Part shown: piece by piece, positions 3,467 through 61,500 of the stretch
Numbering within the stretch: position 1 is the first letter of the stretch
Layout of the letters: every line of letters starts with the position of its first letter
DNA from: Clostridium sp.
GTDB taxonomy: Bacteria > Bacillota > Clostridia > Oscillospirales > Ruminococcaceae
Assembly: GCA_023664445.1 (NCBI GenBank)
Contig: JAMPFN010000006.1
Location: forward strand, 176-64,175
DNA: 64,000 bases
Reading direction: 5' to 3'
Translations under genes and position numbers: made by a program
Notes under the pieces: model-generated
What the model saw: only the letters and a program-made list of their open reading frames with translations
Databases searched by the model: none
Told to the model about the DNA's origin: nothing

Positions 3467-3685
3467 TGCGATTTTGAGGGCTTTATCTCCCGATCTTTGC
3501 CAAGAATGTTTCGTGTGGGTACTTACATTTTTAGTAATACTTCCCCTTGGGGAAAGTATTACTAAAAATCATGAGGATTCCAAAGGTGACTCACCGCGGG
3601 GCGGGGAGATGTCACGAAGTGACAGAGGGGACGGCTCTGTAAGAGGCATTTCCTTTGGCAGGGGGGTTGGGGAACAGAGTCCCCA
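3467..3685 (+). repeat. left arm of ~220-bp inverted repeat flanking the amidase gene
   Basis: Aligns by eye to the reverse complement of 5636..5855 with roughly 15 differences. Contains internal palindromes ATTTTTAGTAATACTTCCCC-TT-GGGGAAAGTATTACTAAAAAT and TGTCACGAAGTGACA. Confidence 0.95.
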
Positions 3686-5635: not shown

Positions 5636-5855
5636 TGGGGGACGCTGTCCCCCATACCCCTGCCAAAGGAAATGCCTCTTACAGAGCCGTCCCCTCTGTC
5701 ACTTCGTGACATCTCCACGCCCCGCGGGGAGTCACCTTTGGAATCCTCGTGATTTTTAGTAATACTTTCCCCAAAGGGGAAGTATTACTAAAAATAAAAG
5801 TACCCATACAAAACATTCTTGGCAAAAATCGGGAGATAAAGCCCTCAAAATTGCA
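5636..5855 (-). repeat. right arm of ~220-bp inverted repeat flanking the amidase gene
   Basis: Reverse complement matches 3467..3685. Confidence 0.95.
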
Positions 5856-5931: not shown

Positions 5932-7500
5932 TTACTCATAGCACTTGAAAACTCCGTCTACATGCTTGTCATCAATTTTTTTGGTAAATAAGCTTACAAC
6001 AGGTACAACCACGATAGAAAGGAGCATGGCTATAGCTCCCGCATTTATAGGCGACGCCAAATTCAGCTTGAATGACGCAGCGCTCTTTGTAAGTTCGGGA
6101 AACCAACCGAATCCGAACAGGATCATGTGTCCTACAGTTATTCCGATACCGAGAATAAAGCTTGTCCAGACAGCCGCCTTTGTAACTTTTTTGCTGAAAA
6201 GACCAAACATAAACGGTCCCAAAAACGCTCCGGCAAGCGCGCCCCATGAATAAGACATAAGCGTTGAAATAGAAGCGTTTTTATTGAAAGCGATTATAAC
6301 TGAAATGATAAGAAACGCTGCGATAAGAACACGCATTATAATAACTTCTTTCTTTTCATTCAGATCTTTCATTTTGGGTTTTATAAAGTCAATTGTGAGA
6401 GTCGAACTCGAAGTCAGTACAAGCGAAGAAAGCGTTGACATAGACGCTGAAAGAACAAGTACCACAACAAGCCCGATCAGTATATCGGGAAGCGCCGTTT
6501 CCAAAAGCGCAGGTATCATTGCGTCAAATTCAGGCTTTCCGTTTGAAAGGGTACTGATAAACGTCTTTGAAGAATCGGTATTGTCAAGAGTGCAGAAAAG
6601 TCTGTCAAATCCGCCAAGCAGATAAGAGCCTCCAGCAACAATAAGCGCAAATACAGTTGAAATGACAGTACCTTTTTTAATGGCGTTTTCATCTTTGATA
6701 GCATAGAATTTATGTACCATTTGAGGAAGTCCCCATGTACCAAGAGATGTAAGTATCACAACTCCCAAAAGATTTACAGGATCGGGTCCGAAAAGACTGT
6801 TGAACTGATTTGTCTTTCCGTTTACCTGCATTTCTCCGAGCTTTGAAAGCGCTTCAGAAAATCCCCCTTGATTCTCTACAGCACAGATCACTACCGCTAT
6901 AATTCCAATAAGCATTACTATTCCCTGTACAAAATCGTTGATAGCCGTTGCGGCATATCCGCCAAGTATAACATAAATTGCAGTTATAACAGCCATTGCA
7001 ATGATTATGATTTTATACGAACTGTCTGAATCCAGGCTGAAAGCCATATTGAAAAGTCTTGACAGACCGTTGTAAACAGACGCCGTATATGGTATCAGGA
7101 AAATGAATACGATAAGAGCGGAAGCTATTTTCAGCCCCTTTGAATCAAATCGCTTCTCAAAATACTCCGGCATCGTCTTTGCGTTCAAGTGATTGGACAT
7201 TATCCTCGTGCGGCGTCCAAGAACGACCCACGCAAGAGCGCTTCCGATAATAGCGTTGCCTATGCCTATCCACGCAGCCGAAACGCCGTAGCTCCAGCCG
7301 AATTGTCCGGCGTAGCCTATGAATACTACCGCCGAAAAATAAGACGTACCGTAAGCGAACGCAGTCAGCCATGAGCCGACATTTCTTCCGCCAAGTACAA
7401 AATCGCTGACAGATCTGGTCTTTTTTGATGTGTAAAGACCAATCCCCATCATAACTGCAATGTATACCATTAGCATTGCAAGGGTTATCGATGTTGTCAT
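5932..7500 (-). CDS. sodium:solute symporter (SSS; PutP/PanF-like)
   Basis: 522 aa, about 13 TM segments, motifs DFVLGGR, SYFSAVVFIG and SASMSTLSS. Substrate not assignable. Confidence 0.85.
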   Translation of the reverse strand: MTTSITLAMLMVYIAVMMGIGLYTSKKTRSVSDFVLGGRNVGSWLTAFAYGTSYFSAVVFIGYAGQFGWSYGVSAAWIGIGNAIIGSALAWVVLGRRTRIMSNHLNAKTMPEYFEKRFDSKGLKIASALIVFIFLIPYTASVYNGLSRLFNMAFSLDSDSSYKIIIIAMAVITAIYVILGGYAATAINDFVQGIVMLIGIIAVVICAVENQGGFSEALSKLGEMQVNGKTNQFNSLFGPDPVNLLGVVILTSLGTWGLPQMVHKFYAIKDENAIKKGTVISTVFALIVAGGSYLLGGFDRLFCTLDNTDSSKTFISTLSNGKPEFDAMIPALLETALPDILIGLVVVLVLSASMSTLSSLVLTSSSTLTIDFIKPKMKDLNEKKEVIIMRVLIAAFLIISVIIAFNKNASISTLMSYSWGALAGAFLGPFMFGLFSKKVTKAAVWTSFILGIGITVGHMILFGFGWFPELTKSAASFKLNLASPINAGAIAMLLSIVVVPVVSLFTKKIDDKHVDGVFKCYE

Positions 7501-20631: not shown

Positions 20632-20708
20632 GTCCACATAGCTCAGTTGGATAGAGCGACCGCCTCCTAAGCGGTAGGCCGGAGGTTCGACTCCTCTTGT
20701 GGACGCCA
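20632..20708 (+). tRNA. tRNA-Arg (anticodon CCT)
   Basis: GTCCACA...TGTGGAC-GCCA; anticodon arm ACCGC-CTCCTAA-GCGGT; GGTTCGACTCC T-arm. Confidence 0.95.
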
Positions 20709-20775
20709 ATTATTTACTGGAAAAGCTTTTATTGTTTTTCCGGTTTTTTATTAATCTTTAAAAGGAGTTTGGAAT

Positions 20776-22068
20776 ATGGACTACTCTCCAAAGGAAATTT
20801 TAAGCTTTGTTGAAGAAAATGACGTTAAATTTATAAGGCTTACGTTTACCGATATTTACGGACAGCTGAAAAATATAGCTATAATGCCCGATCAGCTTTC
20901 TCATGCCTTTGAACACGGCATAGCCTTTGACGGCACGGCTCTTGCAGGCAGACATTCCGATCTTATGCTTTTTCCGGATATATCAACTCTTTCCGTTTTG
21001 CCGTGGCGGCCGAAATCAGGAAGAGTTATCAGATTTTTCTGTAATATCAGATGTACCGACGGTACTCCTTATAAGGGCGATCTTAGAGCTGAACTTAACA
21101 ATTATATCGAAGATCTGCGCAAAAATAATTTTACCTGTGAGATCGGTACAAAATTTGAATTCTATCTCTTCAATACCGACGACAACGGCGAACCTACAAG
21201 AATCCCACACGACCATGCCGGATATCTCGACATCGCGCCCTTGGATAAGTGCGAAAACGTAAGGCGTGAGATATGTCTTTCACTCGAAGAAATGGGCTTT
21301 AATCCGCAAAGCTCAAGACATACGCACGGTCCGGGTCAGAACGAGATAGATTTTATCAGAAGCGACGCTTTAAACGCTGCCGACAATATGGTTTACTATA
21401 AAACAGTCGTTAAAAATATTGCGGCACAAAACGGTCTTTACGCAACCTTTATGCCCAAACCCATCGAGAAAAAACCCGGAAGCGGACTCCATATCTGCAT
21501 TGCCGTAAAGGAAAACGGGAAACATCTCTTCTCCCCCGACGCCGAAAATCAGACAGAAAGCGGAAAGCATTTTATAGCCGGTATTTTAAACAGAATACGT
21601 GAAATAACTTGTTTTCTGAACCCTGTCACAAATTCATATAAGCGTTTCGGAGAAGATTATGCTCCGAAATATGTAAACTGGTCGTTTGAGAATCGTTCAC
21701 AGCTTATCAGGATCCCATACACATCGGGCGGAAAACATCCGAGAATTGAAATCCGCTCTGCCGACGCGGCATGCAATCCATATATTGCTTTCAAGCTTTT
21801 GCTTGCGGCGGGCTTTGAAGGACTTGAAAATAAAACCGTACTGCGTGACGATACCTTTACAAATTCCGCAGCAGGTCAATTTGACGAACTGCCTTCGTCG
21901 CTCGGCGAGGCGATAGAACTTGCAAAATCTAGCGATTTTGTAAGAAAAAATCTCTCGCCTGAGATACATGATTCCGTAATAAGAAAGCTTGAATACGATC
22001 TCGCGCACTATAATGCGGCAGATGACAAACAATTATTTGAGGACGAATATTATTTTAAAATTATTTAA
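20776..22068 (+). CDS. type I glutamine synthetase homologue with a degenerate active site
   Basis: Colinear with GSI-alpha (FTDIYG, PGQNEIDF, ATFMPKP, GSGLH, NRS, RIEIR, NPY), but several metal and substrate ligands are substituted (see findings). Confidence 0.85.
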   Translation: MDYSPKEILSFVEENDVKFIRLTFTDIYGQLKNIAIMPDQLSHAFEHGIAFDGTALAGRHSDLMLFPDISTLSVLPWRPKSGRVIRFFCNIRCTDGTPYKGDLRAELNNYIEDLRKNNFTCEIGTKFEFYLFNTDDNGEPTRIPHDHAGYLDIAPLDKCENVRREICLSLEEMGFNPQSSRHTHGPGQNEIDFIRSDALNAADNMVYYKTVVKNIAAQNGLYATFMPKPIEKKPGSGLHICIAVKENGKHLFSPDAENQTESGKHFIAGILNRIREITCFLNPVTNSYKRFGEDYAPKYVNWSFENRSQLIRIPYTSGGKHPRIEIRSADAACNPYIAFKLLLAAGFEGLENKTVLRDDTFTNSAAGQFDELPSSLGEAIELAKSSDFVRKNLSPEIHDSVIRKLEYDLAHYNAADDKQLFEDEYYFKII

Positions 22069-22083
22069 AAGGTTGTGAATTTT

Positions 22084-22653
22084 ATGGGGAGGGTGCTGTT
22101 AGCGTCTGGCTCTGATAAGGGTATTGCTGTTCTTTCCCAGCTTCTGAAAGAATCGGGATACAATCAGATAACCAACACAAACAGCGGAAATGACGCAAGA
22201 CGCTGTATTGATCAGACAGAATTTGAATTACTGATAATAAACACGCCTTTGACCGACGAATTCGGTCACGATTTGTCGGTCAAGGCGGCAGAATCGTCAA
22301 ATTCCGGAATAATACTCATCTGTAAGTCGGAAATTTCCGACGACGTTTCCGATAAGCTCAGCAGTTACGGCGTTTGCGTTATTCCAAAGCCTGTTAACAA
22401 GGCTGTTTTCCACCAATCCGTAAAGCTTGTATCCGCTACCCGTTCAAGAATGCTTGGACTACAGTCCGAAAACTTCAAGCTTCAAAATAAAATCGAAGAA
22501 ATAAGACTTGTAAACAGAGCCAAAATATGCCTTATGCAGTATTTAAAATTCTCCGAACCGCAGGCTCACAGGTATATTGAAAAACTGGCAATGGATACAA
22601 GACAGACAAGAAAAGAGGTTGCGCAAAATATACTTTCGACATACGAACAATAA
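22084..22653 (+). CDS. ANTAR-domain antiterminator with pseudo-receiver domain (NitR/AmiR-like)
   Basis: C-terminal VNRAKICLMQYLKFSEPQAHRYIEKLAMDTR ANTAR motif. N-terminal receiver-like domain has Asn (LLIINTP) at the usual phospho-Asp position. Confidence 0.85.
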   Translation: MGRVLLASGSDKGIAVLSQLLKESGYNQITNTNSGNDARRCIDQTEFELLIINTPLTDEFGHDLSVKAAESSNSGIILICKSEISDDVSDKLSSYGVCVIPKPVNKAVFHQSVKLVSATRSRMLGLQSENFKLQNKIEEIRLVNRAKICLMQYLKFSEPQAHRYIEKLAMDTRQTRKEVAQNILSTYEQ

Positions 22654-22678: not shown

Positions 22679-23164
22679 ATGAAAAGAGTTATATTGATAT
22701 GCGGCAAAATTTGCAGCGGCAAATCGTATTATGCCAAACAACTGAAAAAAACGGAAAAAGCCGTTATCTTATCAACAGACGAAACGACTTACGACTTGAT
22801 AAATAATGAACAAGGAGAATTCTATAACACATTTGCAAATAGGGTCAATATGTATCTAAGAAAAAAAGCGGTGGAAATTGTTAACGCAGGAGCAACAGTC
22901 ATTTTGGATTGGGGGTTTTGGACAAAAGAAAGCAGACGGGATATTTCTGAATTCTTAAAATCCAATAACATTCCTTATGAATGGCACTATGTTGACGTGA
23001 ATGAGGATAAGTGGAAAAGACAAATAAAAGAAAGAAATGAAAAAATCAAAAATGGACAGAACAGCTTGGATTTCTATGTAGATGAAGGACTTTTAAACAA
23101 GCTTTTGTCATTGTTTGAAGAACCAAGTAAAGCGGATATGGATATTTGGTATATAAACGGATAA
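22679..23164 (+). CDS. small P-loop kinase/ATPase (AAA_33-like)
   Basis: GKICSGKS Walker A and VILDWGFW. AT-richer than its neighbours. Confidence 0.75.
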   Translation: MKRVILICGKICSGKSYYAKQLKKTEKAVILSTDETTYDLINNEQGEFYNTFANRVNMYLRKKAVEIVNAGATVILDWGFWTKESRRDISEFLKSNNIPYEWHYVDVNEDKWKRQIKERNEKIKNGQNSLDFYVDEGLLNKLLSLFEEPSKADMDIWYING

Positions 23165-44107: not shown

Positions 44108-44284
44108 AAAGTTTAGGTCAAGCCTTTTCAAAGGCTTGTGGGGTGCATGGGGCAAAGCCCCTGCTCGACGTCCGCAGACGTCGAAATCCCTTGCCGCAGG
44201 GCGCTCCGCAAGGGGTGAGCCGTAAAAACAGTCCTGTGGACTGCTTTTAGGCGAGGGGACGCCCTGCAAGAGAGGGCGTCCCCT
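44108..44284. repeat. GC-rich multi-hairpin intergenic element (REP-like)
   Basis: Stacked palindromes CAAGCCTT/AAGGCTTG, GGGGCAAAGCCCC, TCGACGTC/GACGTCGA, AAAACAGTC/GACTGCTTTT and AGGGGACGCCCT/AGGGCGTCCCCT. The 5' end matches the arm at 52037. Confidence 0.75.
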
Positions 44285-52036: not shown

Positions 52037-52080
52037 AAAAGTTCAGGTCAAGCCTTTTTAAAGGCTTGACCTGAACTTTT
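52037..52080. terminator. bidirectional terminator between the CE12 gene and the feo operon
   Basis: Perfect 18-bp arms AAAAGTTCAGGTCAAGCC / GGCTTGACCTGAACTTTT. Confidence 0.8.
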
Positions 52081-61239: not shown

Positions 61240-61500
61240 TTTTTGAGAAACTTGCAGGGGACGCTGTCCCCTAACCCCTGAAATGATTTCCGTGTTGCGC
61301 AGTATGTTCATTTCTTGCCATGATGCAGGAAACGAACCAAAGTACTTTAAAATAGTATGTTTTTTAATATACATACGAAAGCTGATTGTTGAGTTCTGCT
61401 ATTGAGTGATAATCTGTGTTGTCGTCTTTGGAGGGTGATTCCCCACAGTGTGGGGAAATGTCCCGAAGGGACAAAAGGGACGGGCGACCGTTGGGAGACA
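61240..61500. repeat. mosaic repeat cluster: modules D and E plus a C-like REP hairpin
   Basis: TTTTGAGAAACTTGCAGGGGACGCTGTCCCCTAACCCCTG; TTCATTTCTTGCCATGATGCAGGAAACGAACCAAAG; GGTGATTCCCCACAGTGTGGGGAAATGTCCCGAAGGGACAAAAGGG (compare 3585..3630). Confidence 0.8.

What the first reader, a model, noticed from the sequence alone, without database searches (positions are those of the whole stretch)
20776..22653. Putative pseudo-glutamine synthetase coupled to a pseudo-receiver ANTAR antiterminator: candidate nitrogen-sensing system
Seen, by eye alignment to B. subtilis GlnA from memory: the metal ligand E132 (GPEPEF) is K (GTKFEF); E189 (HHEV) is T (RHTH); N240 (NGSG) is P; the flap Glu E304 (YEAP) is missing (EDYAP); and the FVRIEE loop carrying R62/E65 is shortened (LAGRHSD). 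E134, E196, H245, E333 and R335 are kept. The adjacent ANTAR protein has Asn in place of the phospho-Asp, and no histidine kinase is nearby. Known: glnA-nitR (ANTAR) operons occur in solventogenic clostridia; AmiR-type ANTARs are controlled by a ligand-binding partner (AmiC) rather than by phosphorylation; B. subtilis GS controls TnrA/GlnR by direct binding. Inference: this GS fold may have lost catalysis and act as a glutamine/glutamate/ammonium sensor that gates an RNA-binding antiterminator.
Basis: partly seen in the sequence, partly recalled or inferred. Interest (0 to 1): 0.78.

Follow-up and report, generated by a model that had tools for sequence, protein, structure and literature searches.

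The report
Pseudo-GS sensor paired with ANTAR regulator
A glutamine-synthetase look-alike that has lost key catalytic residues sits in one operon with a phosphorylation-blind RNA-binding antiterminator whose predicted targets are the real ammonium-assimilation genes, so the pair probably forms the nitrogen-sensing switch of this gut/rumen Clostridia lineage.

Summary
ORF 20776-22068 is a GS-I-alpha-fold protein. Against B. subtilis GS it has E132K and E189T, the flap Glu304 is deleted, and a 4-residue deletion removes the Arg62 loop. ORF 22084-22653 is an ANTAR protein whose receiver has Asn at the phospho-Asp. No histidine kinase lies on the contig.

The substitutions are not decay. E132K/R, loss of E189, and both deletions occur in 121/121 close homologues (Ruminococcus, Porcipelethomonas).

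The GS-like gene is followed by the ANTAR gene in 85/89 family loci and 78/80 named Clostridia loci. This ANTAR-linked clade is monophyletic and has lost metal ligands at least 10 times. It is never the only GS in a genome. It keeps the 2-oxoglutarate pocket of M. mazei GlnA1 at 96-100%.

The genome has an intact GSIII, one ANTAR gene, and one P-II domain, which is fused to AmtB. A hexaloop hairpin (C-AAnGGC-G) overlapping an intrinsic terminator precedes glnN, amtB-glnK and the GOGAT operon. Across genomes this hairpin tracks ANTAR presence (23/26 vs 2/19, p=2e-7).

Best reading: a pseudoenzyme derivative of the clostridial glnA-nitR pair, in which the GS fold senses nitrogen status. Direct gating of the antiterminator and the ligand remain inferred.

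The parts
20632..20708 (+). tRNA-Arg(CCU) between rplA and the GS-like gene (context)
   Evidence: Rfam tRNA at 68.9 bits; ARAGORN.
20716..20752 (+). Intrinsic-terminator-like hairpin (11 bp, 7-nt loop) plus T-run, 24 nt before the GS-like start codon. It has no ANTAR-type hexaloop.
   Evidence: Terminator scan. Fold -15.4 kcal/mol, z -2.5. No sigma-70-like promoter was found between 20579 and 20775.
20776..22068 (+). GS-I-alpha-fold pseudoenzyme (430 aa). n1 metal ligands E132K (nt 21151-21153) and E189T (21322-21324) are changed. The flap Glu304 is deleted (after Y295, nt 21658-21660). The R62 loop is deleted (after G58, nt 20947-20949). The n2 ligands and the 2-oxoglutarate-pocket residues F19, R21, R78, R163, R164 and S180 are kept.
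22084..22653 (+). NitR-type ANTAR antiterminator with a pseudo-receiver (189 aa; alternative GTG start at 22075). Asn53 replaces the phospho-Asp (nt 22240-22242). It starts 15 nt after the GS-like stop codon. It is the only ANTAR gene in the genome.
22679..23164 (+). AAA_33 P-loop kinase-like gene downstream. It is not part of the system.
   Evidence: Pfam AAA_33. It is absent next to the pair in all 168 other loci.

Best explanation
Nt 20776-22653 is a two-gene operon descended from the clostridial glnA-nitR pair.

The first product keeps the GS-I-alpha fold but is very probably no longer a glutamine synthetase:
- Two of the three n1 metal ligands are replaced (Lys and Thr).
- The catalytic flap Glu is deleted.
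- The Asp50'-loop Arg is deleted.

It retains the n2 ligands, the nucleotide- and glutamate-binding arginines, and every residue of the inter-subunit 2-oxoglutarate pocket described for M. mazei GlnA1.

The second product is an ANTAR RNA-binding antiterminator. Its receiver domain cannot be phosphorylated.

Proposed mechanism (inferred):
1. The GS-fold oligomer reads nitrogen status, most likely through 2-oxoglutarate and possibly with ATP/ADP or glutamine.
2. Like AmiC with AmiR or NasS with NasT, it holds or releases the antiterminator by protein contact.
3. Free ANTAR binds a hairpin with closing C-G and hexaloop AAnGGC. This hairpin competes with an intrinsic terminator in the leaders of glnN (GSIII, the working GS), amtB-glnK and the five-gene GOGAT operon, so binding turns on ammonium assimilation.
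4. A similar hairpin that holds the gdhA start codon in its loop may repress GDH translation at the same time.

Shown here:
- the residue changes and their conservation;
- the gene linkage;
- the leader hairpin-terminator modules and their co-occurrence with ANTAR genes;
- the absence of a kinase and of a free P-II.

Inferred:
- loss of catalysis;
- the physical GS-like/ANTAR contact;
- the ligand;
- the direction of control.
For: - **Residue losses.** They are confirmed against solved GS structures and fixed in 121/121 homologues.
- **Gene linkage.** The ANTAR gene lies directly downstream on the same strand in 85/89 family loci and 78/80 named Clostridia loci.
- **Pseudo-receiver.** The ANTAR partners have Asn at the phospho site in 76/84, and their acidic pocket is lost.
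- **Phylogeny.** The ANTAR-linked GS-like clade is monophyletic and separate from true GlnA. It shows at least 10 independent losses of metal ligands. All six ligands plus the flap Glu are intact in only 33/83 and 34/80 members.
- **2-oxoglutarate pocket.** F24, R26, R87, R172, R173 and S189 are 96-100% conserved. The two most conserved peptides picked automatically from the clade alignment (ENVRREIC and ENDVKFIRL) are the pocket-forming segments.
- **Never the sole GS.** GSIII is present in 134/151 family genomes, often within 2-10 kb of the pair. The one GSIII-less genome that clearly carries the pair has a true GlnA.
- **Own genome.** It has one ANTAR gene and an intact GSIII. Its only P-II domain is fused to AmtB. 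There is no histidine kinase on the contig.
- **RNA targets.** The three best hairpin-plus-overlapping-terminator hits with a closing C-G in 2.8 Mb are the leaders of glnN, amtB-glnK and GOGAT. The default folds of the glnN and amtB leaders are terminators (z -5.0 and -3.0).
- **Hairpin tracks ANTAR.** The hairpin precedes GSIII in 23/26 ANTAR-positive genomes and 2/19 ANTAR-negative genomes (Fisher p=2e-7). There are 110 unique instances across loci, with covarying stems.
- **Literature.** C. thermocellum has the same GS-I/ANTAR/GOGAT cluster (PMC4676874, PMC9888227). [quoted passage not shown] The sensor for NitR is described as not fully understood (PMC6316151).
Against: - There is no direct evidence of a GS-like/ANTAR complex, and no expression data (no RNA runs were found).
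- 58/83 clade members keep all six metal ligands, so the ancestral and perhaps prevailing state is a working enzyme.
- About 19 family genomes have the same pseudo-receiver ANTAR type in a GOGAT operon without any GS-like gene. The GS-like partner is therefore not universally required.
- Five of the six 2-oxoglutarate-pocket residues also occur in B. subtilis GS, and most occur in true GlnA of the family. Their invariance may be partly structural.
- Only single hairpins are seen in this genome, not the canonical dual ANTAR hairpins.
- The pair itself has no recognisable promoter or ANTAR hairpin upstream.
- The Fisher test ignores phylogenetic non-independence.
Confidence: 0.55

Rival explanations
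1. The GS-like protein is still an enzyme. It could be a GS with altered metal use or a different gamma-glutamyl/amide ligase. Under this reading its position next to nitR reflects only co-expression of a nitrogen-assimilation enzyme with its regulator, as usually assumed for clostridial glnA-nitR.
For: - The n2 ligands E134, H245 and E333, and R298, R316, R321 and R335, are kept in the window protein.
- 58/83 clade members keep all six metal ligands.
- GS paralogues with other substrates are known (PDB hits to glutamate-methylamine ligase and gamma-glutamylpolyamine-type GS; NF045547 match).
Against: - Two of the three n1 ligands are replaced by Lys and Thr/Lys, and the flap Glu is deleted, in 121/121 homologues.
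- H245 is also lost in most Ruminococcus members (KEKESE).
- Ligand loss recurs at least 10 times in the clade.
- The clade is never the only GS in a genome.
- The score is below every NCBIfam equivalog cut-off.
Confidence: 0.2
2. The ANTAR protein is controlled by something else: a small molecule bound by its own pseudo-receiver, the AmtB-P-II fusion, or GSIII. The GS-like protein would then act on GSIII or GOGAT (for example as an inhibitory or scaffolding subunit) and not on the antiterminator.
For: - About 19 family genomes carry the same ANTAR type without a GS-like gene, inside GOGAT operons.
- The strongly conserved NTPLxDEFG motif of the pseudo-receiver could be a ligand or partner site.
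- GSIII often lies within a few kb of the pair.
Against: - The adjacency is very tight and widespread: gaps of 3-200 nt in 163/169 loci.
- The only P-II is membrane-tethered and is itself encoded in an operon with the target hairpin.
- The precedent of AmiC-AmiR and NasS-NasT favours the adjacent gene product as the partner.
Confidence: 0.17
3. The GS-like gene is a decaying relic of glnA with no function.
For: Catalytic residues are lost. The score is below the GlnA cut-off.
Against: - The full-length open frame is conserved at 60-98% identity in more than 120 clusters and many genera.
- More than 100 columns are invariant.
- The replacement residues themselves are conserved: K/R at position 132, K/T/S at 189.
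Confidence: 0.02

Closest known systems
glnA-nitR operon of solventogenic clostridia (C. saccharobutylicum / C. acetobutylicum NitR)
   Same: - The gene order is the same: a GS-I gene followed by a response-regulator-like ANTAR gene.
- The role is the same: inducing GS/GOGAT genes on nitrogen limitation by antitermination (PMC6316151; PMC4676874).
- The window pair belongs to the same widespread ANTAR-linked GS-I clade.
   Different: - There, GlnA is treated as the working enzyme. Here, catalytic residues are lost and a GSIII does the work.
- The pair in this genome has no ANTAR hairpin upstream of itself.
- No antisense-RNA layer was examined.
- I could not retrieve the clostridial model sequences by name to check their residues.
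C. thermocellum Clo1313_2031 (GS-I alpha) / Clo1313_2030 (receiver + ANTAR) / GOGAT Clo1313_2032-2036
   Same: - The cluster logic is the same, and GSIII paralogues are present (PMC9888227; PMC4676874).
- Deletion of the type I GS is reported, by its title, to deregulate nitrogen metabolism (Rydzak 2017, cited). That is what a regulatory GS predicts.
   Different: - The paper is not held, and its details rest on my memory.
- The residue state of Clo1313_2031 was not tested here.
- No link to the adjacent ANTAR protein was demonstrated in the texts I could read.
AmiC-AmiR (P. aeruginosa) and NasS-NasT (Paracoccus)
   Same: An ANTAR protein with a non-phosphorylatable N-terminal domain is controlled by sequestration by a ligand-binding partner encoded next to it (PMC12591593; PMC3795266). 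AmiR is a weak PDB hit of the window protein (E 3e-5).
   Different: The partner there has a periplasmic-binding-protein fold that senses amides or nitrate. Here it would be a dodecamer-type GS fold.
B. subtilis GS controlling TnrA/GlnR
   Same: A GS-I-alpha acts as a nitrogen sensor that regulates gene expression by direct protein contact (PMC9249791, listed).
   Different: - There, GS is catalytically active. The signal is glutamine feedback inhibition through R62, which is lost in the whole ANTAR-linked clade.
- The targets there are DNA-binding MerR-type factors, not an RNA-binding antiterminator.
M. mazei GlnA1 (2-oxoglutarate-activated GS-I alpha)
   Same: It is the best PDB sequence match (E 1.5e-100). 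All of its 2-oxoglutarate-contacting residues except S38 are conserved.
   Different: In M. mazei, 2-oxoglutarate switches on catalysis. Here catalysis is probably gone, and the pocket would serve signalling only. No binding has been tested.

Membership tests
Glutamine synthetase type I (GlnA, TIGR00653 equivalog) | Gln-synt_N + Gln-synt_C architecture | tested here: met
   PF03951 at 70.1 bits and PF00120 at 286.7 bits.
Glutamine synthetase type I (GlnA, TIGR00653 equivalog) | Score at or above the curated equivalog cut-off | tested here: not met
   329.7 bits against a cut-off of 429.15.
Glutamine synthetase type I (GlnA, TIGR00653 equivalog) | n1 metal ligands E132, E189, E196 (B. subtilis numbering) | tested here: not met
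   The residues are K, T, E. Position 132 is K/R and position 189 is K/T/S in 121/121 homologues.
Glutamine synthetase type I (GlnA, TIGR00653 equivalog) | n2 metal ligands E134, H245, E333 | tested here: met
   All three are present in the window protein. H245 is S or C in most Ruminococcus relatives.
Glutamine synthetase type I (GlnA, TIGR00653 equivalog) | Catalytic flap Glu (E304) and Asp50'-loop Arg (R62) | tested here: not met
   Both are removed by deletions. The deletions occur in 121/121 homologues.
Glutamine synthetase type I (GlnA, TIGR00653 equivalog) | ATP-dependent glutamine synthesis | not testable with these tools
   This needs an enzyme assay.
ANTAR antiterminators of the response-regulator type (EutV, Rv1626, NitR) | C-terminal ANTAR domain | tested here: met
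   PF03861 at 60.6 bits against a cut-off of 27.3. Best PDB match is Rv1626, E 4e-12.
ANTAR antiterminators of the response-regulator type (EutV, Rv1626, NitR) | Receiver domain with phospho-acceptor Asp and acidic pocket | tested here: not met
   - The phospho-Asp is Asn and the acidic pair is Ser-Gly.
- Response_reg scores 26.5 bits, below its 30.2 cut-off.
- Asn occupies this site in 76/84 partners.
ANTAR antiterminators of the response-regulator type (EutV, Rv1626, NitR) | Cognate histidine kinase encoded nearby | tested here: not met
   No HATPase_c domain on the whole contig.
ANTAR antiterminators of the response-regulator type (EutV, Rv1626, NitR) | Target RNA: hexaloop hairpins with A1 and G4 that compete with a terminator | tested here: met
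   The leaders of glnN, amtB-glnK and GOGAT carry such hairpins. Their presence is associated with ANTAR genes, p=2e-7.
ANTAR antiterminators of the response-regulator type (EutV, Rv1626, NitR) | Two tandem hairpins per target | tested here: inconclusive
   This genome shows single hairpins. Some relatives show tandem pairs. No Rfam model was available for comparison.
Sequestration-controlled ANTAR pairs (AmiC-AmiR, NasS-NasT) | Non-phosphorylatable N-terminal domain plus an adjacent sensor gene | tested here: met
Sequestration-controlled ANTAR pairs (AmiC-AmiR, NasS-NasT) | Ligand-dependent physical complex between sensor and ANTAR protein | not testable with these tools
   No multimer prediction or experiment was available.
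Clostridial glnA-nitR operon | A GS-I gene immediately followed by a receiver-ANTAR gene on the same strand | tested here: met
   The gap is 15 nt here. The arrangement holds in 163/169 related loci.

The most novel reading that the evidence does not exclude
The ANTAR-linked GS-I clade is the missing cytoplasmic nitrogen sensor of many Clostridia.

- It would read 2-oxoglutarate through the ancestral inter-subunit pocket and directly sequester or release a NitR-type antiterminator.
- In the Ruminococcus/Porcipelethomonas lineage it has become a pure pseudoenzyme.
- That would make it the first GS-derived protein dedicated to controlling an RNA-binding regulator.
- The regulator would switch on GSIII, AmtB-P-II and GOGAT by antitermination, and may switch off GDH translation through a start-codon-in-loop hairpin.
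Probability: 0.35. Interest if true: 0.85.

Novelty: new variant of a known kind. Interest (0 to 1): 0.7.

Why it matters
How Clostridia sense nitrogen status is unresolved. They lack NtrBC, and the sensor for NitR is described as not fully understood (PMC6316151).

This locus offers a natural separation-of-function allele. The GS fold has shed catalysis but kept the 2-oxoglutarate pocket and its ANTAR partner. That makes 'GS as sensor' directly testable in cultured relatives: R. flavefaciens carries the same degenerate protein, and C. thermocellum is genetically tractable.

It also defines a compact, predictable RNA regulon (glnN, amtB-glnK, GOGAT, perhaps gdhA) in abundant rumen and gut fibre degraders. 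In those organisms ammonium assimilation governs growth and amino-acid overflow.

Tried and rejected
- **Canonical dual-hexaloop ANTAR scan of the genome**. The excess over shuffles came from a REP-like repeat, GGGGGACAGAGTCCCCC, whose real fold is a 7-bp stem with a triloop. I rejected it as a target.
- **Bare hairpin motif counts**. There is no genome-wide enrichment: 84 hits against 45-71 for permuted cores. Specificity comes only from the overlap with a terminator.
- **Very relaxed scan**. It gave 269 hits, mostly noise plus a second dispersed repeat, TTGAAAAGGCTTGA. Only the three nitrogen operon leaders combine a closing C-G with a terminator score of at least 14.
- **Autoregulation of the pair in this window.** The terminator at 20716-20744 has a 7-nt loop and no ANTAR hairpin. 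Many other Clostridia do have TGAAC-AAAGGC-GTTCA upstream of their GS-like gene.
- **Rfam.** No family matches the leaders.
- **RNA-seq.** No RNA runs were identified.
- **N240P and H195N as catalytic defects.** Rejected. True GlnA of the family has A or C at position 240. The Asn at position 195 is a clade signature; E. coli GS also has Asn there (own knowledge).
- **The downstream AAA_33 gene as a third component.** It is not conserved with the pair.
- **Covariation counting on my hairpin alignment A2.** Not run, because the sequences were selected for having stems, so the test would be circular.
- **Rydzak 2017.** The paper is not held.
Full report
**What is in the window**

Two same-strand ORFs lie after secE-nusG-rplK-rplA and a tRNA-Arg(CCU):
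- 20776-22068, 430 aa.
- 22075/22084-22653, 189-192 aa.

The first ORF has both GS domains (Gln-synt_N 70 bits, Gln-synt_C 287 bits). It falls below the curated GlnA cut-off (329.7 against 429.15 bits). Its best solved relatives are GS-I-alpha enzymes: M. mazei at E 1.5e-100 and B. subtilis at E 1e-97.

The second ORF has an ANTAR domain (60.6 bits) and a sub-threshold receiver (26.5 against 30.2 bits). Its best solved relative is Rv1626, with AmiR a weaker hit. Only 15 nt separate the GS-like stop codon from the ATG at 22084. Most homologues align from that Met.

**Checking the observation**

- E132K and E189T.
- N240P.
- The flap Glu304 deleted.
- A four-residue deletion that removes R62.
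- E134, E196, H245, E333 and R335 retained.

In the ANTAR protein the phospho-Asp of Rv1626 aligns with Asn, and the acidic pair aligns with Ser-Gly. No HATPase_c domain occurs on the whole 67.5-kb contig.

Two refinements:
- N240 is not diagnostic. True GlnA of the same family has A or C there.
- H195N is an additional change that marks the clade and is not a defect.

**Is it decay?**

No. The 120 best database clusters (60-98% identity; Porcipelethomonas, Ruminococcus, including R. flavefaciens) are full-length. They share the changes:

| Position (B. subtilis) | State in homologues | Count |
|---|---|---|
| E132 | K or R | 121/121 |
| E189 | K, T or S | 121/121 |
| FVRI loop (R62) | deleted | 121/121 |
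| E304 | deleted | 121/121 |
| H195 | N | 120/121 |

E134, E196, R298, R321 and R335 are kept. In most Ruminococcus members H245 is also lost (pattern KEKESE).

**Linkage to ANTAR**

I sampled one genome per genus in the bacterial family (151 genomes). Ninety have a GS-I-like hit. I fetched 89 loci.
- In 85 of them an ANTAR gene follows directly on the same strand.
- Four loci have no ANTAR hit. A fifth (L087) has only a marginal 24%-identity hit. These five carry R62, H195 and all ligands, and they cluster with B. subtilis GS. They are the true GlnA.

A scan of named genomes gave 80 further loci. They come from Ruminococcus, Harryflintia, Marasmitruncus, Ruthenibacterium, Butyricicoccus, Agathobaculum, Intestinibacter, Clostridium and others. 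In 78 of them the ANTAR gene is directly downstream. The ANTAR partners have Asn at the phospho site in 76/84, and the acidic pocket and the Thr are lost. The pseudo-receiver is therefore clade-wide.

**Evolution of the GS-like clade**

The ANTAR-linked proteins are monophyletic. All have lost R62. Beyond that, catalytic residues erode repeatedly:
- There are at least 10 independent lineages with missing metal ligands.
- A large subclade has Lys at the flap position.
- All six ligands plus E304 are intact in only 33/83 and 34/80 members.

The residues that bind 2-oxoglutarate in M. mazei GlnA1 behave very differently. These are F24, R26, R87, R172, R173 and S189 (PMC11957540).
- They are conserved at 96-100% in all three data sets.
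- The two most conserved peptides that the locus-finding tool chose from the clade alignment are ENVRREIC and ENDVKFIRL. These are the two pocket-forming segments.

Selection thus appears to protect an allosteric pocket more than the active site.

The clade is never the only GS in a genome:
- GSIII is present in 134/151 genomes, often a few kb from the pair.
- The single GSIII-less genome that clearly has the pair also has a true GlnA.

**What the antiterminator controls**

The genome has one ANTAR gene. It has an intact GSIII with GSIII_N, catalytic and C-terminal domains. It has a single P-II domain, which is fused to AmtB.

I searched for hexaloop hairpins (A at position 1, G at position 4) whose 3' arm is shared with an intrinsic terminator just upstream of a gene. 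This returned three leaders:
- glnN: TTGAAAC-AATGGC-GTTTCAG overlapping a 17-bp terminator.
- amtB-glnK: CAGC-AAAGGC-GCTG overlapping an 18-bp terminator.
- The five-gene GOGAT operon, after relaxing the sixth loop base: GAAC-AAAGGT-GTTC.

Each lies just downstream of a good sigma-70-type promoter. The unassisted fold is the terminator for the glnN leader (z -5.0) and the amtB leader (z -3.0).

The same module precedes GSIII and amtB in most relatives. There are 110 unique instances in the fetched loci. Eighty-eight have a closing C-G. The loops are mostly AAAGGC or AATGGC, and the stems differ by compensatory changes.

The hairpin is present upstream of GSIII in 23/26 genomes that have an ANTAR gene and in 2/19 that lack one (p=2e-7). 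This test does not correct for phylogenetic relatedness.

A further hairpin, TTTTAAAC-AATGGC-GTTTAAAA, holds the gdhA start codon in its loop right after the Shine-Dalgarno sequence. It recurs in four genera. This suggests, weakly, translational repression of GDH.

**Mechanism**

The coherent reading has three steps:
1. The GS-fold protein reports nitrogen status, most plausibly 2-oxoglutarate.
2. It holds or releases the phosphorylation-blind ANTAR protein.
3. The ANTAR protein stabilises the hexaloop hairpin and lets RNA polymerase read into glnN, amtB-glnK and GOGAT.

Three things make a dedicated cytoplasmic sensor necessary, and the adjacent gene is the obvious candidate:
- No kinase is encoded nearby.
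- There is no free P-II.
- The receiver is degenerate in the whole clade.

The literature is consistent with this:
- C. thermocellum has the same GS-I/ANTAR/GOGAT cluster plus GSIII paralogues.
- A 2018 review calls the NitR mechanism not fully understood.
- A 2025 review of RNA-binding antiterminators does not mention glutamine at all.

**What remains open**

- Physical contact, the ligand and the sign of control are inferred.
- Most clade members outside the Ruminococcus group could still be enzymes.
- About 19 family genomes place the same ANTAR type in a GOGAT operon with no GS-like gene, so the partner is not obligatory.
- Five of the six pocket residues also occur in B. subtilis GS.
- Only single hairpins occur here, whereas canonical ANTAR targets have two.
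- The pair's own promoter is unresolved. A plain terminator sits 24 nt upstream and no promoter was detected.
- No RNA data were available.

**Verdict**

The system is a pseudoenzyme variant of the known glnA-nitR kind. It gives a concrete, testable model for nitrogen sensing in Clostridia.

Noticed in passing
own genome contig C87:6922-6943 (locus L280:1492-1513): The gdhA start codon sits inside the hexaloop of an 8-bp hairpin, TTTTAAAC-AATGGC-GTTTAAAA, directly after the SD GGAGG. The same cTTTAAAC-AATGGN-GTTTAA arrangement recurs in three other genera (G122, G091, G029), all of which have ANTAR. This may be translational control of GDH.
   Followed up: partly
own genome contig C141:482-2266 (locus L153): AmtB is fused to a C-terminal P-II domain (594 aa). 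This is the only P-II domain in the genome, so there is no free GlnB/GlnK.
   Followed up: yes
window 20632-20752: A tRNA-Arg(CCU) and a plain intrinsic terminator are wedged between rplA and the GS-like gene. No promoter was detected in the 24 nt before the RBS, so how the pair is transcribed is unclear.
   Followed up: partly
window 3670-3684, 5638-5652, 61257-61271 (and many contigs of the genome): A dispersed REP-like palindrome, GGGGGACAGAGTCCCCC, often occurs in pairs in intergenic regions. Two copies lie inside the ~220-bp inverted repeats that another first-stage note proposed as an invertible cassette around an amidase gene. Those repeats may simply be copies of this element.
   Followed up: partly
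window 7049-7062, 44118-44131, 52048-52061: A second dispersed short repeat, TTGAAAAGGCTTGA, has dozens of copies genome-wide (3 in the window against 0.03 expected). It mimics an ANTAR-type hexaloop, but its stem is weak (two G-U pairs).
   Followed up: no
loci L126, L131, L136, L137, L147, L151: In about 19 family genomes the same pseudo-receiver ANTAR gene follows a GXGXG-domain gene and an FAD oxidoreductase gene of a split glutamate-synthase operon, with no GS-like gene in the genome. Two other ANTAR genes (L124, L128) are EutV-like, with a real Asp, in eut clusters.
   Followed up: partly
loci L159, L160, L161, L169, L180: Some relatives have two tandem hexaloop hairpins, or two successive hairpin-terminator modules, in the amtB leader. 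That is closer to the canonical dual-hairpin ANTAR target.
   Followed up: partly
window 22679-23164: An AAA_33 P-loop kinase-like gene lies 26 nt after the ANTAR stop codon. It is not found next to the pair in any other locus.
   Followed up: yes
loci L040-L086 (a subclade of about 25 genera): A large branch of the ANTAR-linked GS-like clade keeps all six metal ligands but has Lys in place of the catalytic flap Glu304. This is a second, independent route to probable inactivation.
   Followed up: partly
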